This document shows, piece by piece, positions 2,218 through 24,800 of a stretch of 32,000 bases of DNA. The stretch spans positions 217,418 through 249,417 of the forward strand of contig NC_001264.1 of the NCBI RefSeq assembly GCF_000008565.1, read 5' to 3'. The DNA comes from Deinococcus radiodurans R1 = ATCC 13939 = DSM 20539 (GTDB lineage: Bacteria; Deinococcota; Deinococci; Deinococcales; Deinococcaceae). Under the pieces are notes generated by a model that did no database searches, was not told where the DNA came from, and worked only from the letters and a program-made list of their open reading frames with translations. Within the stretch, counting starts at the first letter, position 1. Each line of letters opens with the position of its first letter. The translations under genes were made by a program, and so were the position numbers.

Positions 2218-3965
<1,748 letters not shown>

Positions 3966-4011
3966 GGGTGTCCTCCAGAGAACGAGTTGTGAAAACTGGC
4001 GCCCAGCATAA

Positions 4012-4054: not shown

Positions 4055-4062
4055 GCAAGTGG

Positions 4063-7049: not shown

Positions 7050-7652
7050 TCAGCCGAGCAGCTTCGCCGTCAACTCCACCTGCCGCCTGACCTGATGGCG
7101 GATGCTCGCCCGGTCATTCTCCAGCAGCGGCTGGCCGTTGGCGGTTACGCTCGCGCCGTAGGGGTTGCCACCGGACTTGAAAATCACCTCGTCGGTGTAG
7201 CCGGGAGGCGTCAGAACCGCGCCCCAGTGCATCGCCGTCATGTACAGCGTTTGCAGGGTAGTTTCCTGGCCGCCGTTGACATTCTGGGCCGAAGTCATTG
7301 CGCTGAAGGTCTTGTTCGCCAGTTTGCCGCTTGACCACAGGCCGCCGAGGGTGTCGATGAACGCCCGCATCTGGCTCGTCGCGCCGCCGAAACGGGTGGG
7401 CGAGCTGAACACGATGGCTTCGGCCCATTCGAGGTCGGCGGGGGTCGCCTCTGGTACGTCTTTCATCGCCTCGATGTTGGCTTTCCAGGCGTCCTGGCCG
7501 TCAATCACGTCTTGCGGAGCAGTTTCGCGCACCTTGAGCAGCCGCACCTCGGCCCCGGCGGCGCGGCCCGCCTCGGCGGCTTCCTGGGCCATGGCGTAGC
7601 CGGTGCCGGTGCTGGAATAAAAGACGATGGCGAGCTTGACAGGAGCGGTCAT
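7050..7652 (-). CDS. wrbA: NAD(P)H:quinone oxidoreductase, WrbA type (flavodoxin-like fold)
   Basis: 200 aa. '[24 protein letters not shown]', '[28 protein letters not shown]' and 'GGQETT' align by eye with E. coli WrbA blocks. Confidence 0.85.
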
Positions 7653-8321: not shown

Positions 8322-9323
8322 ATGGACATTCCCGACTCGACCGCCCGCCTGCTGCGTTCCCTCACCGACTCGCGGGCGCTTTCCGGCGCGGCGCTGGGGG
8401 TGGTCAATAGCGCGGGCGAGCGGGCGACGCTGGTGCTGGGCCACGCGCAACTGACGCCGGAAACGCACCCGCTGACGCCGGAGCACTGGTTCGACCTCGC
8501 CAGCCTGACCAAACCGCTGTTCACCGCGCGCGAGGTGCTGCGGGCCGCCGAGCGCGGGCAACTCGACGTGGACGACCCGCTCGCCGCCCACCTGCCCGAA
8601 ACGGCGGAGCTGCCGCTGGGCGAGCGCACGCTGCGGCAACTGCTGAGCCACTCGGCGGGGGTTCCGGCGGGCGGGTTCCTGCCACTGCACGAGTGGGGCG
8701 ACCCGGCGGCCATTCGCGCCCGGCTGCCGCTCGAATCCTGGGAACTGCGGGAGCCGGGCGAGGCAGAGTATTCCGACCTGGGGTACCTGCTGCTGGGGCT
8801 GGTGCTCGAACGGGTGAGCGGACGACCCCTGGGCGAGTTCGCGCTGGACGCGGAGCTGACCTTTGTTCCTGACCCCGCCCATGCCGTCGCCACCGAGGAC
8901 TGCCCCTGGCGCGGGCGCGTGCTGCGCGGCGAGGTGCACGACGAAAAGGCGTTCGCGCTCGGTGGTCCGGCGGGGCACGCGGGGCTGTTCGGGACGCTCG
9001 ACGGGGTGCTTGCCCAGGCAGAACGGCTGCTGCGCGGCGGCTGGCTAGGTAAGGCAGCGCAGGCGGCAGCGGTGCGTCCCGAAAGCGGTGGCCATACCCT
9101 CGCCTTCGTGCAATCGCAGCCCGGCTGGAGCGGCGGCAGCCTGTGCAGCGCGCGGGCCTTCGGGCACACCGGCTTTACCGGCACCGGGCTGTGGGTGGAC
9201 CCGGAGTACGGGTTGGCCTGGACGCTCCTCACCAATCGGGTGCATCCGAGCCGGCACACGAGCATCGACACCCAGGCGCTCAGGCGGGCGGTGGGAAATA
9301 CCTTGCTGGCTGAGTTGGGCTGA
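8322..9323 (+). CDS. Serine hydrolase, beta-lactamase/transpeptidase-like family
   Basis: 333 aa. The S-x-x-K nucleophile motif is 'ASLTKPLF'. The second motif is 'YSDLGYLLLG'. The third box is 'GHTGFTGTGLWVDP', the KTG-equivalent HTG. Confidence 0.8.
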   Translation: MDIPDSTARLLRSLTDSRALSGAALGVVNSAGERATLVLGHAQLTPETHPLTPEHWFDLASLTKPLFTAREVLRAAERGQLDVDDPLAAHLPETAELPLGERTLRQLLSHSAGVPAGGFLPLHEWGDPAAIRARLPLESWELREPGEAEYSDLGYLLLGLVLERVSGRPLGEFALDAELTFVPDPAHAVATEDCPWRGRVLRGEVHDEKAFALGGPAGHAGLFGTLDGVLAQAERLLRGGWLGKAAQAAAVRPESGGHTLAFVQSQPGWSGGSLCSARAFGHTGFTGTGLWVDPEYGLAWTLLTNRVHPSRHTSIDTQALRRAVGNTLLAELG

Positions 9324-9326: not shown

Positions 9327-10415
9327 TCACCCCGCCCCGAACGCCAGATACAGCCGCGCGAGCAGCGCCGGGTCGGTCAGCGAGCCGCCGAGCACTTCCT
9401 CGGCGCGGCGCAGGCGGTAGCGCAACGTGTTGACGTGAACGTGCTGCCGAGCGGCGAGTTCATTCAGCGTGCCCCGGTGGGCGAGGTAGGCGCGCAGGGT
9501 GGCCTCGGTGCGCCCATCGTCGCCCAGGGCCGCGAGCCGGGCGAGGGTCTGGCTTCGCAGCGTGTCGAGCGCCCCGCCCGTCAGCAGGGCGTAGAGCGGG
9601 TCGAGTTCGCCGAAGACCTGCACGCCACCGCTCGCTGGAACGGCGGCGAGGGCCTGCCGTGCCTCGGCGTGGGCAGCGGCCAGGGCGCGGCCCCGGTGCA
9701 GCCCGCCCACCCCCAGCCGCACCGGCTGCCCGGTGGACTCGGTGAGCGCGGCGTAGAGTTCGGCGGCCTCGCGCTGCACGTCGGCGGCGGGCCACAGCCA
9801 CAGCGCCCGCTCTCCTGTGGCCCGGTCTCCTGCCGTCCCGTCCCCTTGCACCGTGCACAGTCCGCGCCGCCCACTGCCGACGAGGTAGCCTTCCCCCGCC
9901 CCGGCGAGCACGTCGAGCGCGTGGGCCTGTGCCGCCCGCGCACTCGCGCCGCTGCCGAAGTCCTGGGCGAGCGCGGCCACCGCCACCACGTAGGCTTCGT
10001 CGCCCAGCGCGGCGGGGTCGCCCTGGCCGGAGAGCAGCGCGTCGAGGGTTCGTTCTCCCACCCGGCGGCGGGCGGCCCCGGCAGCGGCACTTTGCAGCCG
10101 CGAGAGCAGCGCGTACTCGGCGGCGAGCGGGCCGAGCGCGGTCCATTCGGGCGGTGCCCACAGCGTCAGACGTCCCACCTGTCGGCGGCCATGCGCGAGG
10201 GGAAAGGGCTGGCCTTCTCCCTCCTGTACGCCTGCTGCCGCCACCACCTCGCCCCAGCTCGCCCGGATTTCGGCGCCGCCCCCGGTCAATTCGGCGAGTT
10301 GCCGCACCAGCGCCCGCTCGGGCTGCGGGCCGGTGGCCGCCTGCCGAAGCTGGCCGAGCAGCGCGAGCAACCCTGGCTCGGCCAGCAGGCGGGCCAGCGA
10401 TAGGGGGCGGGACAT
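9327..10415 (-). CDS. PucR/CdaR-family transcriptional regulator
   Basis: The C-terminus 'LRAYLAHRGTLNELAARQHVHVNTLRYRLRRAEEVLGGSLTDPALLARLYLAF' is the PucR C-terminal HTH. The realistic start is 'MSRPLSLARLLAEPG' at ATG 10415, with an alternative ATG at 10427. The 666-aa track ORF extends spuriously, antisense into the neighbouring gene. Confidence 0.8.
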   Translation of the reverse strand: MSRPLSLARLLAEPGLLALLGQLRQAATGPQPERALVRQLAELTGGGAEIRASWGEVVAAAGVQEGEGQPFPLAHGRRQVGRLTLWAPPEWTALGPLAAEYALLSRLQSAAAGAARRRVGERTLDALLSGQGDPAALGDEAYVVAVAALAQDFGSGASARAAQAHALDVLAGAGEGYLVGSGRRGLCTVQGDGTAGDRATGERALWLWPAADVQREAAELYAALTESTGQPVRLGVGGLHRGRALAAAHAEARQALAAVPASGGVQVFGELDPLYALLTGGALDTLRSQTLARLAALGDDGRTEATLRAYLAHRGTLNELAARQHVHVNTLRYRLRRAEEVLGGSLTDPALLARLYLAFGAG

Positions 10416-10428: not shown

Positions 10429-10472
10429 GCCGGGCACGCCCGCCACGGCGCAAGGTGCATAGTGGGGGCACG

Positions 10473-11683
10473 ATGACAATTCGCGCTGGAATTTCCATTC
10501 CCAGACTGCAACGCTGGGACGCCCACGTGCAGCAGACTTACCTCGACTCCGGCCTGCTGCCGAACGCGCAGACGCTGGTCTACCGGCGCGGCGAACTCGC
10601 CTACCAGAGTGTGCTGGGCTTTGCCGATATGGGGGCCCGCACGCCGCTGCGCGAGGACCATCTGTTTCGCATCTATTCCATGACCAAGCCGCTGACCTCG
10701 CTCGCCTGCCTGATGCTGGTGGAGGAAGGCCGCCTGAGCCTGAAAGACCCGGTGTCGGCGTTTATTCCCGCCTGGGCAGAGCTGAATGTCCACGCGGGCG
10801 ACGCGCCGCCCACCGCCCCCACGCGCCCGATGCAGGTGGTGGACCTGCTGCGGCACACGGCGGGCCTGAGCTACCACATCCAGCAGGGCACCGCCACCGA
10901 CGCGCTCTACCGCGAGCGCCGACTGGGGTTCGGGACCACGCTGGCCGACTTCGTGGCCGGGATTGCCGAGCTGCCGCTGGAATACTCGCCCGGCGAGGCG
11001 TGGCTGTACTCGGCAGCGACCGACGTGCTGGGTTACGTCGTGCAGCAGGTGGCGGGCGTACCCTTCGAGCAGTTTCTGAAGGAGCGGATTCTGACGCCGC
11101 TGGACATGCACGACACCGACTTTCAGGTGCCGCCCGAAAAAGCAGAGCGCCTGACGACCTGCTACGCGCTGACGCCGCAGGCCAGAAAGTCTTCGACCCG
11201 GCGCAGGGCAGCCGTTTCCTCGCCCCGCCGCTGTTCGTGTCGGGTGGGGGCGGGCTGGTGGGCACCGCCGCCGACTACCTGCGCTTTTGCCGCTGCCTGC
11301 TGCGCGGCGGTGAGCTGGACGGCGCACGGCTCATCGGCCCCAAGACCCTGCACCTGATGGTGCAAAACCATCTGCCGGGCGGCGCGGACATCGCCTCGCT
11401 CTCGCGCTCGGTCATCGGGGGCGGCGACGCGGCGGGTGTGGGCTTCGGCCTGGGCTTTGCTGTGACCATTGACCCGGCGCGCACCCTGCTGCCGGGCAGC
11501 CGGGGCGACTTTTTCTGGGGCGGTGCGGCGGGCAGCTATTTCTGGGTGGACCCCGCCGAGGACCTCGCGGTGGTGTTCATGACCCAGACCCTCAACTCGC
11601 CCGAACAGGCCCGCCACACCCTACGCACGATGGTCTACGCCGCCCTGGAGGACTCCGCGACCGACTGGCCGACGCGGGCCTGA
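10473..11683 (+). pseudogene. Class-C-like beta-lactamase family serine hydrolase, frameshifted (or sequencing error)
   Basis: The N-terminal part carries 'LFRIYSMTKPLTSLACLMLVEEGRLSL' (S-x-x-K) and 'EYSPGEAWLYSAATDVLGYVV', and runs to '...RLTTCYALTP'. Sense resumes one frame back as 'GQKVFDPAQGSRFLAPPLFVSGGGGLVGTAADYLRFCRCLLRGGELDG...FFWGGAAGSYFWVDP'. The switch is at about 11175-11180, and one missing base restores it. The start is ATG 10473 or ATG 10455. Confidence 0.8.
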
Positions 11684-11784: not shown

Positions 11785-11810
11785 AGGCCACAAAAAACGT
11801 GGCCTTTTTA
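11785..11810 (+). terminator. Rho-independent terminator candidate
   Basis: The stem is AGGCCAC (11785-11791) / GTGGCCT (11799-11805), with loop AAAAAAC. The T-run is 11805-11809 (its first T also closes the stem), followed by A at 11810. It lies about 100 nt after the hydrolase stop, in an AT-richer spacer. Confidence 0.55.
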
Positions 11811-11884
11811 TGCAAAATGCTCTAGAGGAAAAGACAAAGAGCCGGGGCACGTTTCACCTTTTGCACAAATGCAAGGTGGACGGT

Positions 11885-11923
11885 TGCCCCGTATTCTTTG
11901 AGGTCAAAGGTCAACACGGGGCA
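11885..11923 (+). promoter_or_regulatory. Stem-loop displaying a tandem AGGTCAA AGGTCAA repeat upstream of the secreted-protein gene
   Basis: The 8-bp stem is TGCCCCGT (11885-11892) / ACGGGGCA (11916-11923). The 23-nt loop contains a perfect tandem heptamer, AGGTCAA, at 11901-11907 and 11908-11914. It lies 40-80 nt upstream of the start codon. Function unknown. Confidence 0.3.
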
Positions 11924-11963: not shown

Positions 11964-12770
11964 ATGCGGCAACAGCAGACTGACAGAATGAAAAAAAGAT
12001 TGATGCTGGCCTGCGCTCTGCTGTGGGCTGGGGCAAATGCGAGTGCGCCGCGCCCTCTGACTCCTGCCCCCGAAACGGGCCGGTTCAGCATGTCCTCCTA
12101 CCTCGGAAAGCAGCCTCTGCTGGCTTGGTGCGATGCGCCTAGGCGCGTACTGGCGCTGCTTCAGTACGGCATTCCAGCGGAAACCGCTCAGGCCACACCC
12201 CCGAACGGCGAATTGTACGAATGGCCCAAAACAGCGGCAGGACTGGGGAAAATTCAGGTTTCCGAGGTACAACTCGGAGCACCTGACCCCGGCGCGGGCC
12301 AGATTTACACGCCGCTCAAACTGACTTCCGGCCCGCGCAAAGGCCAAAGCGGCTATGTCCACACCAGCAACATCGAAAACACCAACGACCCCGCCTACCG
12401 CATGACCAAAACAGGCGAATTCAAGCTAGGAAACGACGTTTACAAGTGCCGCTACGTCAAAGATGCCGCCTTCATCGGCGTAACCCGGAAGCGCACCGTC
12501 ATCATCTGGGACAACGGCAAAACGGCGACCTATGCCACGCGCAATTTTGACGGCTCGGCGGGGGTGTATGTGACGGGTGGCAGGCGGATACCCCCCGGCA
12601 TGGAAGGTGGAACGCACTACGAATTCTCGGCGCCGGGCGGCATCACTTACTACGTCAACATCGACGCCAATGGGCCGAAAACAGGAGCAAGTGTCATTGT
12701 CCGCCAAGACGGGCACCTCGAACCGGGCCAGCCCTTCCTCGCCTATTCCGTCAGCCTGCCGAAAAAGTAA
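11964..12770 (+). CDS. Secreted hypothetical protein (Sec signal peptide), no recognised family
   Basis: AGGAG at 11955-11959 precedes ATG 11964; an alternative ATG is at 11988. The signal-like N-terminus is 'MRQQQTDRMKKRLMLACALLWAGANASA'. Codon third positions are visibly less G/C-rich than in neighbouring genes. The stop TAA (12768-12770) is embedded in the hpaE ribosome-binding site AAGGAG. Confidence 0.65.
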   Translation: MRQQQTDRMKKRLMLACALLWAGANASAPRPLTPAPETGRFSMSSYLGKQPLLAWCDAPRRVLALLQYGIPAETAQATPPNGELYEWPKTAAGLGKIQVSEVQLGAPDPGAGQIYTPLKLTSGPRKGQSGYVHTSNIENTNDPAYRMTKTGEFKLGNDVYKCRYVKDAAFIGVTRKRTVIIWDNGKTATYATRNFDGSAGVYVTGGRRIPPGMEGGTHYEFSAPGGITYYVNIDANGPKTGASVIVRQDGHLEPGQPFLAYSVSLPKK

Positions 12771-12780
12771 GGAGTTTCAA

Positions 12781-14355
12781 ATGACCCAGCCCAATCCAAC
12801 CCAGCCCAGTCCGACGCAGCAAAACCACGACCTCGCCCGGCAGCTCCGCGAAAGCCGCCTGAGCAGGGGCCTTCAGCACTTCATCGGCGGCGAGTGGGTG
12901 GACGCCCACAGCGGCAAGACCTTCGACGCGCACTCGCCGGTGGACAACGACTTTCTGGTGAAGGTGGCCGAGGGAGACGCCAGCGACATTGACCGGGCCG
13001 CAAAAGCCGCCCACGACGCCTTCCAGACGTGGCGCGAGGTGAGCGGGGCCGAGCGGCGCAAGATTCTGCATAAGGTGGCCGACCTGATCGAGAAGCGCGC
13101 ACAGGAAATCGCTGTGCTGGAAAGCGTGGACACCGGGCAGGCCATCCGCTTTATGAAGTCGGCGGCGGCGCGCGGGGCCGAGAACTTCCGGTTTTACGCC
13201 GACCGCGCGCCGGGCGCCCAGGACGGCCAGAGCCTGCCCGCGCCCGGCTTTATCAACTACTCCATTCGCCAGCCCATCGGCCCGGTCGGGGTGATTACGC
13301 CCTGGAACACGCCGTTCATGCTGAGCACCTGGAAAATTGCGCCCGCGCTGGCTGCCGGCTGCACGGTGGTGCACAAGCCCGCCGAGTGGTCGCCCGTAAG
13401 CGCCACGTTGCTGACCGAAATCATGGACGAGGCTGGGCTGCCGGGAGGGGTGCACAACCTCGTGCACGGCTTCGGCGAGAGCGCGGGCAAGTCGCTGACC
13501 GAGCACCCGCTGGTCAAGGCGGTGGCCTTCGTAGGCGAGACGACCACCGGGAGCCACATCATGCGGCAGGGGGCCGACACGCTCAAGCGCGTGCACTTCG
13601 AGCTGGGCGGCAAAAACCCGGTGGTGGTCTTCGACGACGCCGACCTCGATAAGGCGCTCGACGCCGTGGTGTTCATGATCTACAGCCTCAACGGCGAGCG
13701 CTGCACGTCCTCCAGCCGGGTGCTGATTCAGGAGGGCATCTACGACGAATTCACCCGCCGCATTGCCGAGCGCGCCGCGAACATCCGGGTGGGCGACCCG
13801 CTCGACCCCGACACCGAAGTCGGGCCGCTCGTTCACCCGCGCCACTTCGAGAAGGTGATGTCGTACTTCGAGTGCGCGCGGCAGGAAGGCGCGACCATTG
13901 CCGCCGGGGGCGAGCGCGTGGGCGAGGCCGGAAATTTCGTGCGCCCGACACTGTTTACCGCCGCCCGCAACGACATGAAGATTGCCCAGGAGGAAATCTT
14001 CGGGCCGGTGTTGACCGCCATCCCTTTTAAGGACGAGGCCGACGCGCTTGAGCTAGCGAACGACGTGAACTACGGCCTGGCCGGGTATCTGTGGACGAAC
14101 GACCTCACCCGCGCCCACCGCTTCGCGCACGGCCTGGAGGCAGGCATGATCTGGGTCAACAGTGAAAACGTGCGGCACCTGCCCACGCCCTTCGGCGGCG
14201 TGAAAAACAGCGGTATCGGACGCGACGGCGGCGACTACAGTTTCGAGTTCTACATGGAGACGAAGAACATCGCCATCTCGCTGGGGACGCACAAAACGGC
14301 GAAGTTGGGTGTGGGGCAGGCTCCGGCAGTGGGCAAGAAAGAGGCTGGAGAATGA
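12781..14355 (+). CDS. hpaE: 5-carboxymethyl-2-hydroxymuconate semialdehyde dehydrogenase (NAD+ aldehyde dehydrogenase family)
   Basis: ATG 12781 lies 7 nt after AAGGAG. 'FELGGKNPVVVF', 'SLNGERCTSSSRVLIQEGIYDEF' and 'IWVNSENVRHLPTPFGGVKNSGIGRDGGDYSFEFYMETKNIAISLG' match E. coli HpaE blocks closely by eye. It has a Pro/Thr/Gln-rich N-terminal extension (PNPTQPSPTQQ) and a short C-terminal tail. Confidence 0.9.
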   Translation: MTQPNPTQPSPTQQNHDLARQLRESRLSRGLQHFIGGEWVDAHSGKTFDAHSPVDNDFLVKVAEGDASDIDRAAKAAHDAFQTWREVSGAERRKILHKVADLIEKRAQEIAVLESVDTGQAIRFMKSAAARGAENFRFYADRAPGAQDGQSLPAPGFINYSIRQPIGPVGVITPWNTPFMLSTWKIAPALAAGCTVVHKPAEWSPVSATLLTEIMDEAGLPGGVHNLVHGFGESAGKSLTEHPLVKAVAFVGETTTGSHIMRQGADTLKRVHFELGGKNPVVVFDDADLDKALDAVVFMIYSLNGERCTSSSRVLIQEGIYDEFTRRIAERAANIRVGDPLDPDTEVGPLVHPRHFEKVMSYFECARQEGATIAAGGERVGEAGNFVRPTLFTAARNDMKIAQEEIFGPVLTAIPFKDEADALELANDVNYGLAGYLWTNDLTRAHRFAHGLEAGMIWVNSENVRHLPTPFGGVKNSGIGRDGGDYSFEFYMETKNIAISLGTHKTAKLGVGQAPAVGKKEAGE

Positions 14356-14870
14356 GCGAAATTTCCGCCATCTGGGAGCGCATTGAGGCGTGGCACGCGG
14401 CCAACGACCAGACGGAAAACCTGAACCCAGGCGCAACCGCCGAGGCCCTTGCCCAGGCCGAGAAAGATATGGGCCTGACCTTTCCGCCCGAAATGCGCGA
14501 ATCGTTACTGCGCCACGACGGCAGCGTAGACGACAGCTGGCCCACCGGGGAACTACTCTCGCTGGAGCGCATGGCCGACGAACGCAAGGTCTGGATGGAC
14601 TTGCTTCAGGACGGCACGTTTGACGGAAATGCCAGTCATAACGAAAGCTCGGAAGCGTTGCAACCTGGCTGGTGGAACCCGGCCTGGATTCCGCTGGATG
14701 CCGATGGCGGCGGGAACGGTGCAGTGATTGACCTGGCTCCGGGGCCGCAGGGAACTGTGGGACAGGTGATTGATATGGATCACGAAGTCGGCCCCAGTGG
14801 GCCAAAGTACGTTTCGTTGGCGGCCTATCTGGAAGCGATGCTTGAGCGACTTTCGGAGGCGGAAGAATGA
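14352..14870 (+). CDS. SMI1/KNR4 (SUKH-1 superfamily) protein
   Basis: 172 aa. 'IWERIEAWHAAN...NPGATAEALAQAEKDMGLTFPPEMRESLLRHDG' followed by 'WIPLDADGGGNGAVIDLAPGPQGTVGQVIDMDHE...YVSLAAYLEAML' fits the SMI1_KNR4 pattern. ATGA overlaps occur at both ends (14352-14355 and 14867-14870). Confidence 0.75.
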   Translation: MSEISAIWERIEAWHAANDQTENLNPGATAEALAQAEKDMGLTFPPEMRESLLRHDGSVDDSWPTGELLSLERMADERKVWMDLLQDGTFDGNASHNESSEALQPGWWNPAWIPLDADGGGNGAVIDLAPGPQGTVGQVIDMDHEVGPSGPKYVSLAAYLEAMLERLSEAEE

Positions 14871-15729
14871 CCCCTCACCGCCTCCTCATCACCGGCGCGG
14901 CGGGCGAAGTCGGCTCGGCGCTGCGGGAGCTTCTACGTGGGCCTCTCGGTCAACACTTTCCCATCATTCGCCTGACCGACAACCGCGACCTAGGCGCGGC
15001 CCGGCCCGGAGAGGAAGTCATGCTCGCCGACCTCACCGACTTTAACGCCGTGCTGAAGGTCATGCAGGGCGTGGACGCCGTCATTCACCTCGCCGGGATT
15101 CCCGATGAGGACAGCTACGCCAACATCCGCGCGGTGAATATCGACGGCACTTACCACGTGCTGGAAGCGGCGCGGCAGGCGGGCGTAAGGCGCGTGGCGT
15201 TCGCGTCCAGCATTCACACCGTCGGCTTTTACCCGCGCACCGAGATCATCTCCCCCACCGTGCCGGTGCGCCCGGACACCTATTACGGCGTGAGCAAAGT
15301 GTTCGGCGAGGCGCTGGGCCGCATGTACTGGGAGCGCTACGGGCTGGAGTTCGTGGGCGTGCGCATCTGCTCGTTTCAGCCGCGTCCGAAAGACCGCCGC
15401 CACCTCTCCACCTGGCTCTCGCCGCGTGACGCCACGCAACTGTTCGCCCGCGCCGTGACCGCGCCGGACGTGGGCTTTCTGGTCGTGGCGGGCATCAGCG
15501 GCAACACCCGCCGCTGGATGTCGCCGGAGGGCTGGGACGTGCTCGGCTACGTGCCGCAGGACGACGCCGAACGCTTTGCCGCCGAGGTGGAGCACATTCA
15601 CGGCAACGAGGGGGACATCACCGAGCAGCGGCAGGGCGGGATTTTCGTGGACGCCCATTATCACGGACGAGCACAGACGCCGCCCGCGCCCGTCTCGCCA
15701 CCCCCCGTCTCACCATCCAAGGAGGAACC

Positions 15730-15733
<4 letters not shown>
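14867..15733 (+). CDS. NAD-dependent SDR (extended, epimerase/dehydratase fold), uronate-dehydrogenase-like
   Basis: The Rossmann motif is '[14 protein letters not shown]' and the catalytic motif is '[16 protein letters not shown]' (YxxxK). From recalled sequence, it aligns by eye along most of its length with Agrobacterium Udh: 'RLLVTGAAGQLG', 'LYGVSKCFGENLARMY', 'LSTWFSHDD', 'FQGGTFVD'. It has a Pro-rich tail, [18 protein letters not shown]. It overlaps the hpaB start (ATGA). Confidence 0.75.
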
Positions 15734-17244
<1,511 letters not shown>

Positions 17245-17255
17245 GGGTGAAGACA

Positions 17256-17370
17256 CCCCTCACCCCTTGCTGCGCAAGGCCCTCTCCCCCAGGTAGAGGG
17301 TCAAAAGACGAAAAAGCCCTCTCCTAAGGGGAGAGGGAGGGAGCCGCGTCAGCGGCGGAAGGGTGAGGGG
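17256..17370. repeat. Small non-coding repeat (SNR-like), copy 2, longest form
   Basis: CCCCTCACCCC (17256-17266) and GGGTGAGGGG (17361-17370) bracket three hairpin modules: CCTTGC-TGCG-CAAGG, CCCTCTCC..AGAGGG and CCCTCTCC-TAAGG-GGAGAGGG. The first 33 nt are identical to copy 3 (30746-30778). It sits between hpaB and hpaD. Confidence 0.85.
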
Positions 17371-17410
17371 TCTCCCAAACGCCAGCACCCACCAGCCCAC
17401 CGGAGACAAT

Positions 17411-18385
<975 letters not shown>

Positions 18386-18395
18386 TGCGGATGCC

Positions 18396-19466
18396 ATGCT
18401 GATTACCCGACAACATCACCCCGACAATCTGGAAACGCCCGCCCACGCGCTGCTTGAGACTCTCACGCCCGCGCATTACGTCCGCAGCCATTTCGCGGTG
18501 CCTGCCCTGGACGCCGCCGAATTCCGGCTGAAGGTGGCAGGGCAGGTCGCCTCTCCCCTGTCGCTCTCGCTCGCCGAACTGCGCGCCCTGCCCGCCACGA
18601 CCCACGTCCTCACGCTGGAATGCGCAGGCAACGGGCGGGTGTATCTGACCCCCAAGGCCAGCGGCGTGCAGTGGGAAGTCGGCGCGGTGGGCACGGCGCA
18701 GTGGACGGGCGTGCCGCTGCGAACGCTGCTGGAGCGGGCCGGGGTGGCGGACAACGCCCGCGAGGTCGTGCTGGTCGGCGCCGACGAGGGCCAGATGGAC
18801 GACCCCGTCAAGTCGCCCGGCCACATCTACTACTCGCGCAGCTTGCCGCTGAGCAAGGCGCTGGACAACGTGCTGCTCGCCTACGAGATGAACGGCGAGG
18901 CGCTGACTCCCGCGCACGGCGCACCGCTGCGGGCCATCGTGCCCGGCTGGTACGGCATGGCGGCGGTGAAATGGCTGACCGAGATTCGCGTTATCGACCA
19001 CGCCTACCAGGGGTACTTTCAGACGGTGGATTACGCCCGCTGGGAGAGGCAGGACGGCTTGCCGCCAGTGCGGGTGCCGCTCTCGGAAATGCGCGTCAAA
19101 TCGCAGATTCTTACGCCTGCGCCGCACGCCTGTGTTCAGGCCGGCGAAGAACTCGAACTCTGCGGCGCGGCCTGGACGGGCGGCGAACGCACCGTGCAGC
19201 GGGTCGAAGTCAGCACCGACGGCGGTCAGAGCTGGCAGGACGCGGAGTGGCAGCAAGACGCCGCGCCCGGCGTGTGGCGACACTGGCACCTGAGCTGGAC
19301 GCCGCAGCAGCCCGGCGAGGTCAAGCTACTCAGCCGGGCCACCGACTCGGCGGGGCAAGTGCAGCCCGCCGCGCACGACCCGCACCGGGGCAGCTACGAG
19401 GTTCACCACATCGTCGCCGTGCCCGTCACCGTCAAAGCGAAGCAGGAACACAAGGAGAAGTCATGA
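18396..19466 (+). CDS. SUOX-family molybdopterin oxidoreductase (sulfite-oxidase-like, no heme domain)
   Basis: 356 aa. 'LTLECAGNGR' carries the conserved Mo-ligand Cys. 'GAPLRAIVPGWYGMAAVKWLTEIRV' is the Moco-domain signature. A C-terminal Ig-like dimerisation domain follows ('VQRVEVSTDGGQSWQDAEW'). There is no cytochrome b5 or c module. Its stop overlaps the hpaG start (ATGA, 19463-19466). Confidence 0.85.
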   Translation: MLITRQHHPDNLETPAHALLETLTPAHYVRSHFAVPALDAAEFRLKVAGQVASPLSLSLAELRALPATTHVLTLECAGNGRVYLTPKASGVQWEVGAVGTAQWTGVPLRTLLERAGVADNAREVVLVGADEGQMDDPVKSPGHIYYSRSLPLSKALDNVLLAYEMNGEALTPAHGAPLRAIVPGWYGMAAVKWLTEIRVIDHAYQGYFQTVDYARWERQDGLPPVRVPLSEMRVKSQILTPAPHACVQAGEELELCGAAWTGGERTVQRVEVSTDGGQSWQDAEWQQDAAPGVWRHWHLSWTPQQPGEVKLLSRATDSAGQVQPAAHDPHRGSYEVHHIVAVPVTVKAKQEHKEKS

Positions 19467-20251
19467 AAACCGCCAACTTTATCGCCGGGGGCCGCACCCT
19501 GAAAGGCGAACTGCGCCAGGACGGCCTGCTCTACGACGCCGCCGGTGACAGCCATCACCCCGACGACGTGCAATTCCTGCTGCCGCTGACGCCCGGCAAG
19601 GTCATCGCGCTGGCGCTGAATTACGCCGACCACGTGGCCGAACTCGGATTCAAGGCCCCCGAGGAGCCGGTGATGTTCCTCAAGCCCAACACCAGCCTGC
19701 TGCCGCACCAGGGCACCGTGATCTACCCGCGCGGTGCTAAGTTCATGCACTACGAGGTCGAACTCGGCATCGTCATCGGACGCGATGCCCGGCGCGTGAA
19801 GGCGAAGGACGCGGACGATTACGTGGGCGGCTACACCATCGCCAACGACCTGGTGGTGCGCGATTACGTCTCCAACTACTACCGCCCGCCCATGCGCGCC
19901 AAGGGCTGGGACACCTTCGGGCCGCTGGGGCCGTATCTGGTGAGCGCCGACGAGGTGCCCGACCCCTACAACCTGGGCCTGCGCGCCTACGTCAACGGCG
20001 AACTGCGGCAGGAAGGCAGCACGCGCGACATGATTCTCAAGGCCCCCGAACTGATCGAGTTCATGAGCCGCTTCATGACCCTGGAAGCGGGCGACGTGAT
20101 TCTGACCGGCACGCCCAAGGGCGTCTCGCACGTGCATCCCGGCGACGTGATGCGTCTGGAAATCGACGGTCTGGGCGCACTGGAAAACCCAGTGGCGCTG
20201 GAAGACGAGAGCGCTGAGCCTTTGATTGCGGACGAAGGAGAAAGGAAGTAG
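19463..20251 (+). CDS. hpaG: Fumarylacetoacetate-hydrolase-family enzyme, HpaG-like (OPET decarboxylase / HHDD isomerase), single domain
   Basis: AAGGAG (19452-19457) precedes ATG 19463. 'KVIALALNYADH', 'PVMFLKPNTSL', 'HYEVELGIVIGR', 'GYTIANDLVVRD' and 'GDVILTGTPKGV' are FAH-fold motifs. At 262 aa it is a single domain, unlike the two-domain E. coli HpaG. Confidence 0.8.
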   Translation: MKTANFIAGGRTLKGELRQDGLLYDAAGDSHHPDDVQFLLPLTPGKVIALALNYADHVAELGFKAPEEPVMFLKPNTSLLPHQGTVIYPRGAKFMHYEVELGIVIGRDARRVKAKDADDYVGGYTIANDLVVRDYVSNYYRPPMRAKGWDTFGPLGPYLVSADEVPDPYNLGLRAYVNGELRQEGSTRDMILKAPELIEFMSRFMTLEAGDVILTGTPKGVSHVHPGDVMRLEIDGLGALENPVALEDESAEPLIADEGERK

Positions 20252-20322
20252 TCGAACGGTCTAACCGTCAAACCGTCGAAGCGCAAAAGGCGGTTTGACC
20301 GTTTGACTTTGGACGGTTCGAC
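20251..20322 (+). repeat. Imperfect 72-nt inverted repeat built from AACCGTC / GGTTTGAC words (hpaG-hpaF intercistronic structure)
   Basis: The left arm is GTCGAACGGTC-TAACCGTCAAACCGTC. The right arm is GGTTTGACCGTTTGAC-TTTG-GACGGTTCGAC. The outer arms pair 9 of 11 and the inner CCGTCAAACCG / CGGTTTGACCG pair 10 of 11. Tandem AACCGTC occurs at 20263-20269 and 20271-20277. GGTTTGAC (20292-20299) is directly followed by CGTTTGAC (20300-20307). No U-tract follows. Confidence 0.6.
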
Positions 20323-20337
20323 GTTCCGCAGGAACTT

Positions 20338-20724
20338 ATGCCCCATCTCACCCTCGAATACACCGACAACCTGCCCGAGCCGCGCATTCCTGAGTTGCTG
20401 CAAAAGCTCAACGGCGTGTTGCTCGCCCGGCCCGACATCTTCCCCGTCGGCGGCATCCGGGCGCGGGCGTATCGCCTCAGCGAATATGCGCTGGCGGACA
20501 GCAGCGAACCGTCCGACGCGTTCGTGCACCTGCGACTGCAAATTGGCGCGGGCCGCAGCGAAGAGGTTAAAAAGGAGACGGGAGATGCCCTCTTTGCCGT
20601 TCTAACCGACCATTTTGCCGCCGAGTTCGCCCAGCGCGGGCTGATGCTCTCGGCGGAAATCAGCGAGTTCAGCGAGGCCGGGACGTGGAAGAAAAACAAT
20701 ATTCACGCGCGGTACCGGAAATGA
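20338..20724 (+). CDS. hpaF: 5-carboxymethyl-2-hydroxymuconate delta-isomerase
   Basis: 128 aa. 'MPHLTLEYTDNL...FPVGGIRARA...DAFVHLRLQIGAGRS...KKNNIH' parallels E. coli HpcD/HpaF ('MPHFIVECSDNI...FPLAGIRSRV...YAFVHMTLKIGAGRS...KQNNVH'). Confidence 0.9.
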   Translation: MPHLTLEYTDNLPEPRIPELLQKLNGVLLARPDIFPVGGIRARAYRLSEYALADSSEPSDAFVHLRLQIGAGRSEEVKKETGDALFAVLTDHFAAEFAQRGLMLSAEISEFSEAGTWKKNNIHARYRK

Positions 20725-21074
20725 CGGGGCCTATCGCTGCCGTCCTGATTCATGTGGGCGACCCCGAGCGCGGCCTCGACTGGTACGAGCAGGCATTCGT
20801 GGGCGCGGTTCGTCGCGTTCTGCCGGACACCGATTTCGAGTATCTGGACTACGCCGGCGTCATGCTGGAAGTGGTGCCCGCCGATGCCAAAGTCGGGTCG
20901 GGCGCGGCGGGCAGTGTGATCTACTGGCAGGTGCCCGATTTCGCAGCGGCGCTGGCCCATTTTCGTGCGCTGGGCGCCGAACTGTACCGTGGTCCGCTGG
21001 ACATCGAGGGCGGCGAGCGTATGGGTCAGGTGCGCGACCCCTGGGGCAACCTCATCGGCTTGCGGGGCCCTTGA
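20721..21074 (+). CDS. Glyoxalase/bleomycin-resistance/dioxygenase (VOC) superfamily protein
   Basis: 117 aa from ATG 20721, with an ATGA overlap on the hpaF stop. 'AAVLIHVGDPERGLDWYEQAF' and 'GQVRDPWGNLIGL' are typical VOC beta-alpha-beta-beta-beta module ends. Confidence 0.7.
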   Translation: MTGPIAAVLIHVGDPERGLDWYEQAFVGAVRRVLPDTDFEYLDYAGVMLEVVPADAKVGSGAAGSVIYWQVPDFAAALAHFRALGAELYRGPLDIEGGERMGQVRDPWGNLIGLRGP

Positions 21075-22571: not shown

Positions 22572-24800
22572 TCAGCCCCGTTCCTGGCGGCTCCAACCGC
22601 TCAGGATTTTCTCCATCGTCAGCGGGTAATCGCGCACGCGCACGCCGGTCGCGTTGTAGACCGCGTTCGCCACCGCCGCGCCCACGCCGCAGATGCCGAG
22701 TTCACCGATGCCCTTGGCCTTGACCGGCGAGGACTTGTCGTCGAGTTCGTCGAGAAAAATCACGTCGAGGTCAGGAATGTCGGCGTGAACCGGCACGTGG
22801 TACTCGGCGAGGTCATGGTTGACGAACAGCCCGCGCCCGGTGTCCACCTTCAGCTCCTCCATCAGCGCGGCGCCGATGCCCATCGTCATGCCGCCGAGGC
22901 ACTGGCTGCGGGCGGTGACGGGGTTGAGGATGCGTCCGGCGGCGGCCACGCTCAGCAGCCGGCGCACCCGCGTTTCGCCGGTCACCACGTCCACTGCCAC
23001 CTCGGCGAAGTGCGCCCCGAAGCTCGCCTGCACGTAGCGCTCGGTGAGGTCGCCGAAACTCGCTTCCCCGGTGGCACTCAGGCCTCCCTTGCCCGCCAGG
23101 CCCCTGAGCGCCGCCCGTTTGCCGCCCTGGCCGTCGCGCACGTACCCTTCTTCAAAGACCGCCGTGTTCGGGTCGAAGCCGAGTTCCTTGGCAATCGCGG
23201 TCCGCAGGTCGCGGCAGGCGTAATAGACGCTGCTGGAGGAACTGTTGGCGCCAAAAGACCCGCCCGACCCGGCGGCGCGGGGAAAGTCGGTGTCGCCCAG
23301 CCGGACCGTGACCTGTTCGAGCGTCAGCCCCAGCATCTCGGCAGCCACCTGCCCCAGAATGGTGTAGCTGCCGGTGCCGATGTCGGTCATCTGCGTTTCC
23401 ACCGTCAGGGTGCCGTCCTGCTCGAGCCGTACGCGGGCGCCGGATTTCTGCACCAGGTTGCCGCGGAAGGCCGAGGCGACGCCCAGGCCGACCAGCCAGT
23501 CGCCCTCGCGGCGCTCGCCGGGCCTGCGGCGCTCCTTCCAGCCGAACCGCTCGGCGCCCACCGTCAGGGCCTCGACCAGGCGGCGCGAGGAGTAGGGGCG
23601 GCCCGGGCCTTTCTCCGGGTCGTATTGCACGTCGTTGAGGATGCGCAGCTCCACCGGGTCCATGTCCAGCGCCTCGGCGAGTTCGTCCACCGCGCATTCC
23701 AGGGCGAGCATGCCCACCCCCTCGCCGGGCGCGCGCATGGAGGCGCCGGGGGGCAGCCCGAGTTCGGCCAGCCGGGTGCGAATCAGGCGGTGTTCGCCCG
23801 CGTAGAGCAGCTTGGTCTGGTCGGCGGCGGTCTCGGCGTCCCCGCCGGGCAGGTTGCCGGAAAAGGAGTCGTGCCCCACGGCGATGAGGCGGCCCGACTT
23901 CTCGGCCCCGAGCCGCAGGCGCTGCACGGTGGCGGGGCGGTGGCTGGTGTGATTGAAAATCTGGTGCCGGGTCAGCATCACCTTGACCGGGCGCCCGAGT
24001 TGCCGCGCCGCCGCCGCCGCGAGCACCGCGTCGGCGTAGAACAGCAGCTTGGAGCCGAAGCCCCCGCCCACGTAGGCGCTGACGATGCGGATGTCCTTTT
24101 GCGGCACCTGCAGGGTCTTGGCCAGGCCCCGGTGGACCCAGTGCAGAATCTGGTGCGAGGTGTAGAGCGTGAGCCGGTCGCCTTCCCAGTGGGCGAGGCT
24201 GGAATGCGGCTCCATCGGCGCCTGCGACTGGTCGGGGGTGGTGTAGGTCACGTCCACCCGAACCGGCGCCGAGCCGAAGGCCCGGTCAAAGTCGCCCACC
24301 ACGCTGTCTTCGGAGTCGCTGGTCGGTTCTGCCTGCCCGAGCTGCGCGGCGAGGTCGTAGGCTCCGTCCAGGCGGCGGTAACGCACCCGGATGAGGCGGG
24401 CGGCGGCGCGGGCCTGCTCGAAGGTGTCGGCCACCACCAGGGCAATCGCCTGGTCGTGGTGGTGGATGGCGGTTCCGGCGAGCTGCGGCGTGGCGTCGTC
24501 CTGCTGGGGAGCGACGCCGGGGTTCTCGCCCTGGGCGGGCATATTTTTGTGGGTCAGGACGAGCTGCACGCCCGGCGCAGCCTCGGCCTCGGCGGTGTCG
24601 ATGTCGAGCAGGCTGCCGTGCGCGATGTCGGAGCCGAGGACGAACCCGTAGGCGGCGTCCCGCAGCGCGGCGTCCCGGTACTCGTAGGCGTAGGTGGCCT
24701 GCCCGGTGACCTTGAGCGGCCCTTCCTTGCGGGGGTGGGGCCGGGTCAGCACCCGTTCCTGGTCGAGCGGGGTGGGTCCGGCGGGTTCGGTGAATTTCAT
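22572..24800 (-). CDS. Xanthine-oxidase-family molybdopterin-binding large subunit (PaoC/aldehyde oxidoreductase-like), operon A
   Basis: 742 aa. '[12 protein letters not shown]', '[10 protein letters not shown]', '[21 protein letters not shown]' and '[26 protein letters not shown]' (catalytic Glu region) are present. ATGA overlap with the FAD subunit gene. Confidence 0.9.

What the first reader, a model, noticed from the sequence alone, without database searches (positions are those of the whole stretch)
11964..21074. Homoprotocatechuate meta-cleavage cluster with three translationally coupled non-pathway genes, and with hpaC, hpaH and hpaI absent
Gene order is: secreted orphan - hpaE - SUKH - Udh-like SDR - hpaB - [SNR] - hpaD - SUOX - hpaG-like - [structured spacer] - hpaF - VOC.

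The extra genes are not loosely adjacent. They are welded in by 4-nt ATGA overlaps: hpaE/SUKH at 14352, SUKH/SDR at 14867, SDR/hpaB at 15730, SUOX/hpaG at 19463, and hpaF/VOC at 20721. This argues for co-translation with the pathway enzymes.

The canonical flavin reductase (hpaC), hydratase (hpaH), aldolase (hpaI) and an HpaR/HpaA-type regulator are not in the window.

The combination suggests a variant pathway or substrate range. For example, the substrate might be a modified or conjugated 4-hydroxyphenylacetate whose processing needs an extra dehydrogenase and a Mo-enzyme. I am not aware of a described hpa operon with this composition, but I cannot search to confirm that.
Basis: partly seen in the sequence, partly recalled or inferred. 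Interest (0 to 1): 0.7.

Follow-up and report, generated by a model that had tools for sequence, protein, structure and literature searches.

The report
Deinococcus radiodurans homoprotocatechuate operon with passenger genes
This is the long-annotated aromatic-acid (4-hydroxyphenylacetate) breakdown operon on chromosome II of Deinococcus radiodurans, and its extra genes recur in the same operon across the genus while the "missing" steps are encoded elsewhere on the same chromosome, so it is a genus-typical mosaic and not a new pathway.

Summary
Ten + strand genes (11964-21074) run orphan, hpaE, SUKH, SDR, hpaB, hpaD, SUOX, hpaG, hpaF, VOC, with five verified ATGA overlaps. The window holds no hpaC, hpaH or hpaI.

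The window is D. radiodurans chromosome II (100% protein matches), and RefSeq already annotates it this way.

The absence argument fails. HpaH and HpaI both pass their NCBIfam equivalog cut-offs as solitary genes about 298 kb and 81 kb away on the same replicon. In Deinococcus sp. VB343 hpaH directly follows VOC, so a rearrangement scattered them.

Across 28 other Deinococcus hpa clusters, the Udh-like SDR is present in 20, SUOX in 9, SUKH in 7 and a small VOC in 9. They sit mostly in two slots (hpaE|hpaB and after hpaD) that also hold TPR, DUF559 or HpaC genes. Three clusters have none of SDR, SUKH or SUOX.

All ten genes are under purifying selection. SUOX keeps the sulfite-oxidase active site and is most likely the characterised DrSO. 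The SDR keeps the Udh catalytic and carboxylate-binding residues but has Asn112Ile and Ser75Ala/Pro.

Verdict: a lineage-typical mosaic operon. Only the SDR is a serious candidate for an undescribed pathway role.

The parts
9327..10415 (-). PucR-type (HTH_30) transcription regulator and likely regulator of the cluster. Here it is separated from the cluster by an inserted serine-hydrolase gene.
   Evidence: PF13556. Called as 362 aa. It is divergent and directly adjacent to the hpa cluster in most relatives.
10472..11683 (+). Serine-hydrolase (beta-lactamase family) gene inserted between the regulator and the operon. It is not part of the pathway.
   Evidence: PF00144. Annotated. Absent at this position in D. 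wulumuqiensis.
11785..11805 (+). Terminator-like hairpin followed by a T-run, closing the upstream gene.
11870..11897 (+). Promoter-like TGCAAG-N16-TATTCT, overlapping the inverted repeat at 11855-11878. Candidate operon promoter and operator.
   Evidence: The sequence is conserved upstream of the first gene in L001 and L005. The consensus scan found no canonical sigma-70 site, so this is inferred.
11964..12770 (+). First gene of the operon: a secreted, lineage-restricted all-beta protein (the 'orphan').
   Evidence: No Pfam, NCBIfam or PDB sequence hit. It has a Sec signal peptide (from the sequence). 52 representatives among 1.84 billion clusters. Found upstream of hpaE in about 10 clusters. 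Model pLDDT is 88.6, with no Foldseek PDB match.
12781..14355 (+). hpaE, 5-carboxymethyl-2-hydroxymuconate semialdehyde dehydrogenase.
   Evidence: TIGR02299, 815 bits against a cut-off of 638.
14352..14870 (+). SMI1/KNR4 (SUKH-1) protein, a sporadic resident of the hpaE|hpaB slot.
   Evidence: PF09346. Knr4 core, E 2e-14. Present in 7 of 28 clusters. dN/dS 0.16.
14867..15733 (+). Udh-like NAD(P)-dependent SDR, a near-constant resident of the hpaE|hpaB slot. Substrate unknown.
   Evidence: 3rft and 3ay3, E 1e-57 to 1e-61. S111, H113, Y136, K140, S165 and R174 are kept, with N112I and S75A/P. Present in 20 of 28 clusters.
15730..17244 (+). hpaB, the oxygenase component of 4-hydroxyphenylacetate 3-monooxygenase (Thermus-type HpaB-1).
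   Evidence: TIGR02309, 909 bits against a cut-off of 480.
17245..17410 (+). Structured spacer carrying a module of a dispersed repeat (SNR-like). It replaces the hpaB/hpaD overlap seen in other species.
   Evidence: -83 kcal/mol, z -5.0. Partial copies elsewhere. The hpaB>hpaD junction is -8 or -4 in many relatives.
17411..18385 (+). hpaD, 3,4-dihydroxyphenylacetate 2,3-dioxygenase (VOC-fold type).
   Evidence: TIGR02295, 382 bits against a cut-off of 321.
18396..19466 (+). Heme-less sulfite oxidase with no signal peptide, so presumably cytoplasmic (SUOX family). Most likely the characterised DrSO (about DR_A0225).
   Evidence: PF00174 plus PF03404. Residues equivalent to chicken SO R138, H140, C185, R190, W204 and Y322 are conserved. 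Follows hpaD in 9 of 28 clusters. Named 'sulfite oxidase' in NCBI records.
19463..20251 (+). hpaG, a single-domain FAH-family decarboxylase/isomerase.
   Evidence: TIGR02303, 343 bits against a cut-off of 276.
20252..20337 (+). Long imperfect hairpin spacer.
   Evidence: -47 kcal/mol, z -5.8. No other copy in the sequence held.
20338..20724 (+). hpaF, 5-carboxymethyl-2-hydroxymuconate isomerase.
   Evidence: PF02962, 156 bits, full length.
20721..21074 (+). Small VOC-family protein of unknown function, the last gene of the operon in this species.
   Evidence: PF00903. Orthologue in L001 at 76%, where hpaH follows it directly.

Best explanation
This is the homoprotocatechuate (4-hydroxyphenylacetate) meta-cleavage operon of Deinococcus radiodurans chromosome II, roughly DR_A0219 to DR_A0228.

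It is most likely transcribed as one unit from a promoter about 70 bp upstream of the secreted orphan gene. Ribosomes are passed between genes at 4-base overlaps. A PucR-type regulator upstream probably controls it.

Inferred from family membership, the enzymes work as follows:
- HpaB hydroxylates 4-HPA using reduced flavin from a general cellular reductase, because there is no dedicated HpaC.
- HpaD opens the ring and HpaE oxidises the semialdehyde.
- HpaF and HpaG isomerise and decarboxylate.
- HpaH and HpaI, solitary genes elsewhere on the same replicon after a rearrangement, finish the route to pyruvate and succinic semialdehyde.

The non-core genes mostly sit in two permissive slots, hpaE|hpaB and after hpaD (in this species a small VOC gene also follows hpaF). 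Across the genus these slots carry a changing cargo: SUKH, SDR, VOC, DUF559, SUOX, TPR and HpaC.
- SUOX works as a sulfite oxidase that rides on the operon's transcription.
- SUKH and VOC are sporadic passengers.
- The Udh-like SDR is an old, nearly constant resident with an altered substrate pocket. It is the one extra gene that may have a real but unknown role linked to the pathway.
For: Identity: 100% matches to D. radiodurans proteins AAF12406-AAF12413 and to a 412,978-bp chromosome II contig.

Core enzymes pass their equivalog cut-offs at full length.

HpaH (P0268) and HpaI (P0483) of D. radiodurans pass their cut-offs. They lie at about 54.5 kb and 271 kb, against about 353 kb for the cluster, on one contig.

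In L001, VOC>hpaH>convergent aminotransferase is collinear with the D. radiodurans hpaH locus. That puts a breakpoint exactly at VOC|hpaH. D. wulumuqiensis shares the VOC|DUF1990 junction.

Slot cargo varies between species.

The -4 junctions are conserved. dN/dS is 0.06-0.21 for all enzymes and 0.26-0.49 for the orphan.

The SUOX active site is intact. The literature notes that the D. radiodurans enzyme is the only characterised SOR not encoded next to an electron acceptor and that it appears always expressed.

A terminator-like site and a conserved promoter-like motif lie upstream of the orphan.
Against: - No transcript data were available, so a single transcription unit is inferred. The 166-nt and 86-nt structured spacers could attenuate or process the mRNA.
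- Twenty of 28 clusters keep the SDR. In L017 and L018 it is more conserved (77-78%) than HpaB, HpaD and HpaE (70-73%). That is more than expected of a mere passenger.
- SUOX co-diverges with hpaD, so it is an old resident rather than a recent insertion.
- I could not check the rest of the genome for a flavin reductase.
- Growth of D. radiodurans on 4-HPA is not documented in the papers I could search.
Confidence: 0.58

Rival explanations
1. The Udh-like SDR is a real pathway enzyme, while SUKH, SUOX and VOC are passengers. There are three candidate roles:
(i) NAD+-dependent oxidation of the cyclic hemiacetal form of the ring-fission product to a pyrone. This would be analogous to LigC in the protocatechuate 4,5-cleavage pathway and to Udh acting on a pyranose hemiacetal that carries a carboxylate next to the ring oxygen.
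(ii) Oxidation of 4-hydroxy-2-oxoheptanedioate to the 2,4-diketo acid, followed by FAH-type hydrolysis to pyruvate and succinate. This would bypass HpaI, like the diketo-hydrolase branch of non-phosphorylative L-rhamnose catabolism.
(iii) Supplying reduced flavin to HpaB in place of HpaC.
For: - The SDR is in 20 of 28 clusters, always between hpaE (or SUKH) and hpaB, and often overlaps its neighbours.
- dN/dS is 0.16-0.18, like the core enzymes.
- The catalytic S/Y/K and the carboxylate-binding S165/R174 of Udh are kept. The positions I recall as sugar-hydroxyl contacts, N112 and S75, become Ile and Ala/Pro, which would suit a less hydroxylated carboxylated substrate.
- hpaC is absent from all 20 SDR-bearing clusters.
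- hpaG scores 187 bits to the 2,4-didehydro-3-deoxy-L-rhamnonate hydrolase model.
Against: - Eight clusters lack the SDR and seven of those also lack hpaC.
- The same I112 subfamily occurs outside hpa contexts. It stands alone in D. maricopensis, is coupled to an XDH-type enzyme in a deltaproteobacterial MAG, and sits among sugar genes in Brevibacillus.
- HpaE already performs the semialdehyde oxidation.
- No lactonase is present.
- Most SDR-bearing clusters also keep hpaI.
- The roles of residues N112 and S75 come from my memory of the AtUdh structure paper.
Confidence: 0.25
2. One reading: the cluster encodes a variant pathway for a modified or conjugated (for example sulfonated) 4-hydroxyphenylacetate. 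It would need both the extra dehydrogenase and the Mo enzyme, and it would dispense with hpaC, hpaH and hpaI.
For: - The extra genes are translationally coupled and under purifying selection.
- SDR and SUOX are both old residents of the Deinococcus cluster.
- SUOX would make sense if sulfite were released from a sulfonated aromatic.
Against: - hpaH and hpaI exist in this genome and in the relatives' clusters.
- SDR and SUOX occur independently of each other. SDR occurs without SUOX in D. deserti, L004 and L007, and SUOX without SDR in L010, L021, AJ005 and D. aetherius.
- Clusters with neither are otherwise intact (L016, L023, D. psychrotolerans).
- There is no desulfonating enzyme, sulfatase or transporter in the cluster.
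- The SUOX slot holds a TPR protein or HpaC in other species.
Confidence: 0.08
3. The cluster is a decaying relic in D. radiodurans. After losing hpaH and hpaI by rearrangement, having no hpaC and acquiring repeat insertions, it no longer supports 4-HPA catabolism. On this reading it survives mainly as an expression platform for SUOX and other passengers.
For: - hpaH and hpaI are scattered.
- A serine-hydrolase gene separates the regulator from the operon.
- An SNR-like element breaks the ancestral hpaB/hpaD overlap.
- Sulfite-oxidising enzyme genes in D. radiodurans are described as apparently always highly expressed.
Against: - All ten ORFs are intact and full length.
- Core-gene dN/dS against three relatives is 0.06-0.17.
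- The solitary hpaH and hpaI still pass their equivalog cut-offs.
Confidence: 0.09

Closest known systems
hpa clusters of other Deinococcus species in public records: D. wulumuqiensis R12 plasmid (NZ_CP049358), D. ficus pDFI2, D. deserti VCD115 plasmid 2, D. psychrotolerans plasmid
   Same: - D. wulumuqiensis has the same order: orphan, hpaE, SUKH, SDR, hpaB, hpaD, SUOX, hpaG, hpaF, VOC, followed by the DUF1990 genes and XDH genes.
- D. ficus has hpaE-SDR-hpaB-hpaD-SUOX-hpaH-hpaI, with SUOX overlapping hpaH.
- D. deserti has hpaG-hpaE-SDR-hpaB-hpaD-hpaH-hpaI.
- All have a divergent PucR-type regulator.
   Different: - D. radiodurans (with D. wulumuqiensis) lacks hpaH and hpaI in the cluster.
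- D. radiodurans carries every accessory gene type at once.
- It has a serine-hydrolase gene between the regulator and the operon.
- It has an SNR-like insertion between hpaB and hpaD.
- D. psychrotolerans shows the most canonical form: hpaE, VOC, hpaB, hpaD, hpaC, hpaG, hpaF, hpaH, hpaI.
Escherichia coli W/C hpa (hpc) cluster: hpaGEDFHI, hpaBC, hpaR, hpaA, hpaX (from my knowledge of the literature)
   Same: The reaction sequence is the same: HpaB, HpaD, HpaE, HpaF, HpaG, HpaH, HpaI. hpaE, hpaF and hpaG match the same families.
   Different: - HpaB is the Thermus-type HpaB-1. The E. coli-type model scores 205 bits against a cut-off of 885.
- HpaD is the VOC-fold TIGR02295 type, whereas the E. 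coli enzyme is, from memory, of the LigB class.
- HpaG is a single domain, not the two-domain fusion (239 bits against 811 for the fused model).
- There is no hpaC, hpaX, HpaR or HpaA. The regulator is a PucR type.
- Extra genes are interleaved.
Uronate dehydrogenase (Udh) of Agrobacterium tumefaciens (PDB 3RFT) and Chromohalobacter salexigens (3AY3)
   Same: Homology runs over the whole length, E 1e-57 to 1e-61. The Rossmann motif, Ser111, His113, Tyr136, Lys140, Ser165 and Arg174 are conserved.
   Different: - Asn112 becomes Ile and Ser75 becomes Ala/Pro in the whole Deinococcus clade.
- There are no uronate or glucarate genes nearby.
- It sits in an aromatic catabolic operon.
- No curated NCBIfam model reaches its cut-off. 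The best is Azf at 148 bits against 400.
Heme-less sulfite oxidase DrSO of D. radiodurans (D'Errico et al. 2006, J Bacteriol 188:694) and other SUOX-family sulfite-oxidising enzymes
   Same: - It has the Moco and dimerisation domains and the full set of sulfite-oxidase active-site residues.
- It has no heme domain and no signal peptide.
- NCBI names it sulfite oxidase.
- Reviews note that the D. radiodurans enzyme is not encoded next to an electron acceptor. This fits a gene flanked by hpaD and hpaG.
   Different: - Identity with DrSO (DR_A0225) rests on my memory of the locus tag and on counting from DR_A0230 = DUF1990. The paper itself was not available.
- It scores below the curated SorA, SoxC and SorT cut-offs, with 244 bits against 600 for SorA.

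Membership tests
Homoprotocatechuate (hpa) meta-cleavage pathway gene set | HpaB oxygenase component | tested here: met
   TIGR02309, 909 bits against a cut-off of 480, full length.
Homoprotocatechuate (hpa) meta-cleavage pathway gene set | HpaC flavin reductase component | tested here: not met
   No PF01613 protein among the window ORFs scanned. tblastn with the L015 HpaC finds nothing in the window or in the other D. radiodurans loci held. The flavoprotein at 7050-7652 is WrbA. The rest of the genome was not searched.
Homoprotocatechuate (hpa) meta-cleavage pathway gene set | HpaD ring-cleavage dioxygenase and HpaE semialdehyde dehydrogenase | tested here: met
   TIGR02295, 382 bits against 321. 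TIGR02299, 815 bits against 638.
Homoprotocatechuate (hpa) meta-cleavage pathway gene set | HpaF isomerase and HpaG decarboxylase/isomerase | tested here: met
   PF02962, full length. TIGR02303, 343 bits against 276. HpaG is a single domain only, and no second FAH gene is in the window.
Homoprotocatechuate (hpa) meta-cleavage pathway gene set | HpaH hydratase and HpaI aldolase | tested here: met
   Absent from the window. Present as solitary genes on the same replicon: P0268, TIGR02312, 492 bits against 351.5, and P0483, TIGR02311, 431 bits against 368.8.
Homoprotocatechuate (hpa) meta-cleavage pathway gene set | Induction by, and growth on, 4-hydroxyphenylacetate | not testable with these tools
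   No experimental report was found in the searchable library.
Uronate dehydrogenase (Udh) | SDR fold with the catalytic Ser-Tyr-Lys and the carboxylate-binding Ser165/Arg174 | tested here: met
   Alignment to 3rft and 3ay3.
Uronate dehydrogenase (Udh) | Sugar-hydroxyl contacts Asn112 and Ser75 (residue roles recalled from the AtUdh structure paper) | tested here: not met
   Ile at 112 and Ala/Pro at 75 in all 16 cluster-linked sequences and in the stand-alone Deinococcus members.
Uronate dehydrogenase (Udh) | Context of uronate or glucarate catabolism, and activity on glucuronate or galacturonate | tested here: not met
   The context is the hpa operon. More distant homologues sit in mixed contexts. 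Activity cannot be tested here.
Sulfite-oxidising enzymes (SUOX family) | Moco-binding domain plus dimerisation domain | tested here: met
   PF00174, 200 bits, and PF03404, 60 bits.
Sulfite-oxidising enzymes (SUOX family) | Mo-ligand Cys and the sulfite-pocket residues (chicken SO C185, R138, R190, W204, Y322) | tested here: met
   All are conserved in the alignment to 1sox. K200 is not conserved, and R450 lies beyond the aligned stretch.
Sulfite-oxidising enzymes (SUOX family) | Heme domain or adjacent cytochrome c partner, and periplasmic export | tested here: not met
   No heme domain, no signal or Tat motif in the N-terminus (from the sequence), and the neighbours are hpaD and hpaG. notes this for the D. 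radiodurans enzyme.
SUKH/SMI1-KNR4 immunity proteins of polymorphic toxin systems | SUKH-1 domain | tested here: met
   PF09346, 66 bits. Knr4 core, E 2e-14.
SUKH/SMI1-KNR4 immunity proteins of polymorphic toxin systems | Adjacent toxin gene | tested here: not met
   The neighbours are hpaE and the SDR in all seven clusters that carry it. The dS excess in D. wulumuqiensis (1.6 against about 0.5) suggests cassette-like replacement.

The most novel reading that the evidence does not exclude
The Udh-like SDR that sits between hpaE and hpaB in about 70% of Deinococcus hpa operons catalyses an undescribed step of homoprotocatechuate catabolism. The options are oxidising the cyclic hemiacetal of the ring-fission product, opening an aldolase-independent diketo-acid branch, or feeding reduced flavin to HpaB in a genus that almost never carries hpaC. 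The heme-less sulfite oxidase that co-diverges with hpaD, and that occupies the slot where hpaC sits in the two clusters that have one, would also be functionally tied to the pathway and not just a passenger.
Probability: 0.2. Interest if true: 0.6.

Novelty: new variant of a known kind. Interest (0 to 1): 0.33.

Why it matters
If the best explanation holds, the finding is mainly a caution. Tight translational coupling and genes missing from one window do not by themselves indicate a new pathway.

The useful residue is threefold:
- A genus-wide, conserved and uncharacterised Udh-like dehydrogenase lies inside an aromatic catabolic operon, in the model organism D. radiodurans, where knock-outs and enzyme assays are easy.
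- It explains the odd genomic context of the characterised heme-less sulfite oxidase, which is embedded in the hpa operon.
- The first gene of the operon encodes a secreted, lineage-restricted protein with a confident all-beta model and no structural match in the PDB.

Tried and rejected
- Remnants of hpaH, hpaI, ParA/B or other relatives' neighbours in the window: none.
- The flavoprotein at 7050-7652 as an HpaC surrogate: it is WrbA and is not conserved near the relatives' clusters.
- The recurrent neighbours c13, c14 and c16 of the relatives' clusters: no Pfam or NCBIfam hit.
- Rfam on the cluster: no match at E <= 0.1.
- Sigma-70 consensus scan: 0 sites.
- Literature: no paper on a Deinococcus hpa cluster, and no main-text mention of the locus tags DR_A0219-0229. 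D'Errico et al. 2006 is not held.
- Single-sequence AlphaFold of the orphan: useless, pLDDT 33.
- PDB sequence searches for the orphan and VOC: nothing significant.
- Mutual exclusion of the SDR and HpaC as evidence for a reductase role: too few HpaC-bearing clusters (2), and 7 clusters lack both, so no inference was drawn.
Identity was established through exact protein look-ups instead.

Full report
**1. What is there**

The window has about 66% G+C. It is chromosome II of Deinococcus radiodurans.
- All ten proteins of the finding match GenBank entries AAF12406-AAF12413, AAF12497 and AAF12498 exactly.
- The SDR lies on a 412,978-bp D. radiodurans contig with the same gene order.
- A PLSDB copy of the replicon matches the 9,111-bp stretch at 100% and carries the RefSeq names hpaE, SMI1/KNR4, NAD(P)-dependent oxidoreductase, hpaB, hpaD, sulfite oxidase, FAH family, CHM isomerase and VOC.

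hpaE, hpaB, hpaD and hpaG exceed their NCBIfam equivalog cut-offs at full length.

Both longer spacers fold far better than shuffles, with z -5.0 and -5.8. A module of the hpaB-hpaD spacer recurs at two other places in the window and at another chromosome II locus, so the 'SNR' label is reasonable.

**2. How much the overlaps mean**

Four-base overlaps are the normal operon junction in this genome. Five other gene pairs in the same window have them: two ABC permeases, the two DUF1990 genes and subunits of both XDH-type enzymes. The overlaps therefore show co-transcription and coupling. They do not show shared function.

They are, however, conserved across species. hpaE>SUKH, SUKH>SDR and hpaE>SDR are -4 in most clusters that carry these genes.

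**3. The 'missing' genes**

The window has no hpaH, hpaI or hpaC, not even as remnants. D. radiodurans nevertheless has both later enzymes.
- HpaH is P0268, scoring 492 bits against a cut-off of 351.5 for TIGR02312. It is a solitary gene at about 54.5 kb.
- HpaI is P0483, scoring 431 bits against 368.8 for TIGR02311. It is a solitary gene at about 271 kb.
- The cluster lies at about 353 kb on the same contig.

In Deinococcus sp. VB343 (L001), hpaH follows VOC directly, and a convergent class-III aminotransferase follows hpaH. The same hpaH-aminotransferase pair is collinear with the D. radiodurans hpaH locus. This places a rearrangement breakpoint exactly at VOC|hpaH. D. wulumuqiensis shares the VOC|DUF1990 junction, so the event predates the split of the two species.

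In 18-19 of 28 other Deinococcus clusters, hpaH and hpaI sit at the 3' end of the cluster.

hpaC is truly rare in the genus. I found it only in D. psychrotolerans and in the MAG fragment L015, both times between hpaD and hpaG. From established knowledge, two-component flavin monooxygenases accept freely diffusing reduced flavin. The lack of a dedicated reductase is therefore not fatal.

A divergent PucR-type regulator accompanies nearly all clusters. In D. radiodurans a serine-hydrolase gene with a terminator-like hairpin separates it from the operon. A promoter-like TGCAAG-N16-TATTCT motif upstream of the orphan is shared with L001 and L005.

**4. The extra genes across the genus**

I compared 20 informative loci from one-genome-per-species contigs and eight annotated plasmid or megaplasmid records.

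| Gene | Clusters carrying it (of 28) |
|---|---|
| Udh-like SDR | 20 |
| SUOX | 9 |
| SUKH | 7 |
| Small VOC | 9 |

Three clusters (L016, L023 and D. psychrotolerans) have none of SDR, SUKH or SUOX, yet they are otherwise intact.

The accessory genes mostly sit in two slots.
- The hpaE|hpaB slot holds SUKH, the SDR, a VOC, and in four species a DUF559/endonuclease-domain gene on the opposite strand.
- The slot after hpaD holds SUOX, a TPR protein (L001, L005) or HpaC.
- A small VOC can also follow hpaF (this window, L001, D. wulumuqiensis) or lie between hpaH and hpaI (Deinococcus sp. NW-56).

The SDR and SUOX occur independently of each other.

All ten genes are under purifying selection against three relatives.

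| Genes | dN/dS |
|---|---|
| Core enzymes | 0.06-0.17 |
| SDR | 0.16-0.18 |
| SUOX | 0.17 |
| SUKH | 0.16-0.17 |
| VOC | 0.20-0.21 |
| Orphan | 0.26-0.49 |

SUOX divergence tracks hpaD divergence across eight clusters, with Spearman 0.85 on non-independent pairs. This fits one old acquisition followed by losses.

**5. What the extra proteins are**

SUOX has the Moco and dimerisation domains. It keeps the residues equivalent to chicken sulfite oxidase R138, H140, C185, R190, W204 and Y322. It has no heme domain and no export signal.

It is most likely the heme-less sulfite oxidase characterised by D'Errico et al. (2006).
- The other SUOX-family proteins of this organism are described as uncharacterised or frame-shifted.
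- Reviews say the D. radiodurans enzyme is the only characterised one not encoded next to an electron acceptor, and that it appears always expressed.
- Counting locus tags back from DR_A0230 = DUF1990 gives DR_A0225, the tag I remember. The paper itself was not available.

The SDR is a full-length homologue of uronate dehydrogenase. It keeps the catalytic Ser, Tyr and Lys, and Ser165 and Arg174. From my memory of the AtUdh structure, those last two hold the substrate carboxylate. Asn112 is Ile and Ser75 is Ala or Pro in every Deinococcus-clade sequence, including stand-alone ones. More distant members of this subfamily are not in hpa contexts.

The SUKH protein is a standard SMI1/KNR4 domain with no toxin partner. 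In D. wulumuqiensis its dS is three times that of its neighbours, which suggests allelic replacement.

**6. Interpretation**

The simplest account is a standard Deinococcus hpa operon. Its permissive slots have collected co-expressed passengers, and in D. radiodurans the last two genes were scattered by rearrangement.

- The two genes assort independently.
- Clusters without them are otherwise intact.
- SUOX looks like an ordinary sulfite oxidase.
- The 'missing' genes exist elsewhere on the replicon.

What remains open is the SDR. It is present in 20 of 28 clusters. It is more conserved than HpaB, HpaD and HpaE in the most distant comparisons: 77-78% against 70-73% in L017 and L018. It also has a modified pocket. 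I put about 25% on a real pathway-linked role. The candidates are hemiacetal oxidation analogous to LigC, an HpaI bypass through a diketo acid, or flavin reduction. All three are inference without direct evidence.

**7. Novelty**

The architecture has been in public annotation since 1999 and recurs in many Deinococcus records. I found no paper that discusses it. It is a lineage-specific variant of a known kind of operon. Interest is modest.

Noticed in passing
window 11964-12770 (+): The first gene of the operon encodes a secreted protein of a tiny, apparently Deinococcus-restricted family. Only 52 representatives turned up among 1.84 billion clusters. It has two invariant cysteines and evolves fast (dN/dS 0.26-0.49). 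AlphaFold with 28 homologues gives a confident all-beta model (pLDDT 88.6, pTM 0.83). That model has no Foldseek match in the PDB at E <= 0.001.
   Followed up: partly
window 17245-17410; partial copies at 30746-30778 and 2138-2209; L087 6323-6371: A dispersed, strongly structured repeat module (SNR-like) is inserted between hpaB and hpaD. Many other Deinococcus species have an 8- or 4-base overlap at that junction.
   Followed up: partly
window 20252-20337: An 86-nt imperfect long hairpin (-47 kcal/mol, z -5.8) lies between hpaG and hpaF. It has no other copy in the sequence held and no Rfam match. In several relatives hpaG and hpaF abut.
   Followed up: partly
L015 2583-3089; L090 9637-10143; compare window 18396-19466: In the only two Deinococcus-type clusters with a flavin reductase (HpaC-like, PF01613), the gene sits between hpaD and hpaG. 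That is the slot occupied by SUOX here and by a TPR protein in L001 and L005.
   Followed up: partly
L088 9836-10198; L091 7420-7761; L094 8210-8548; L095 9131-9475: Small DUF559/endonuclease-domain genes lie on the opposite strand inside the hpaE|hpaB slot of four species. This suggests the slot is a hot spot for selfish insertions.
   Followed up: no
L096 (D. deserti), L089 (D. ficus), L004, L007 and others: Clusters with hpaG placed upstream of hpaE (hpaG about 72% identical to the window's) have no hpaF (CHM isomerase) within the cluster.
   Followed up: no
L088 8389-8970 compared with window 14352-14870: The SUKH gene of D. wulumuqiensis is only 65% identical, with dS 1.6, while its neighbours have dS about 0.3-0.6. 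This looks like cassette-like replacement of this one gene.
   Followed up: partly
window 8322-9323, 9327-10415 (-), 10472-11683; L079, L081: Two serine-hydrolase (beta-lactamase family) genes flank the PucR-type regulator. Two other D. radiodurans assemblies have different DNA immediately upstream, and in L079 the regulator is missing. This points to a strain-variable rearrangement point.
   Followed up: no
window 22572-26391 (-) and 26848-30655 (+); L083 4491-8804: Two divergent three-subunit xanthine-dehydrogenase-family enzymes lie just downstream of the cluster. In a deltaproteobacterial MAG, a 57%-identical homologue of the SDR is translationally coupled to such an enzyme.
   Followed up: no
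window 2218-4058 (-): A family-5 solute-binding protein gene is split into two overlapping ORFs (2218-3180 and 2796-4058), each matching a different part of PF00496. This indicates a frameshift or pseudogene next to the ABC permeases.
   Followed up: no
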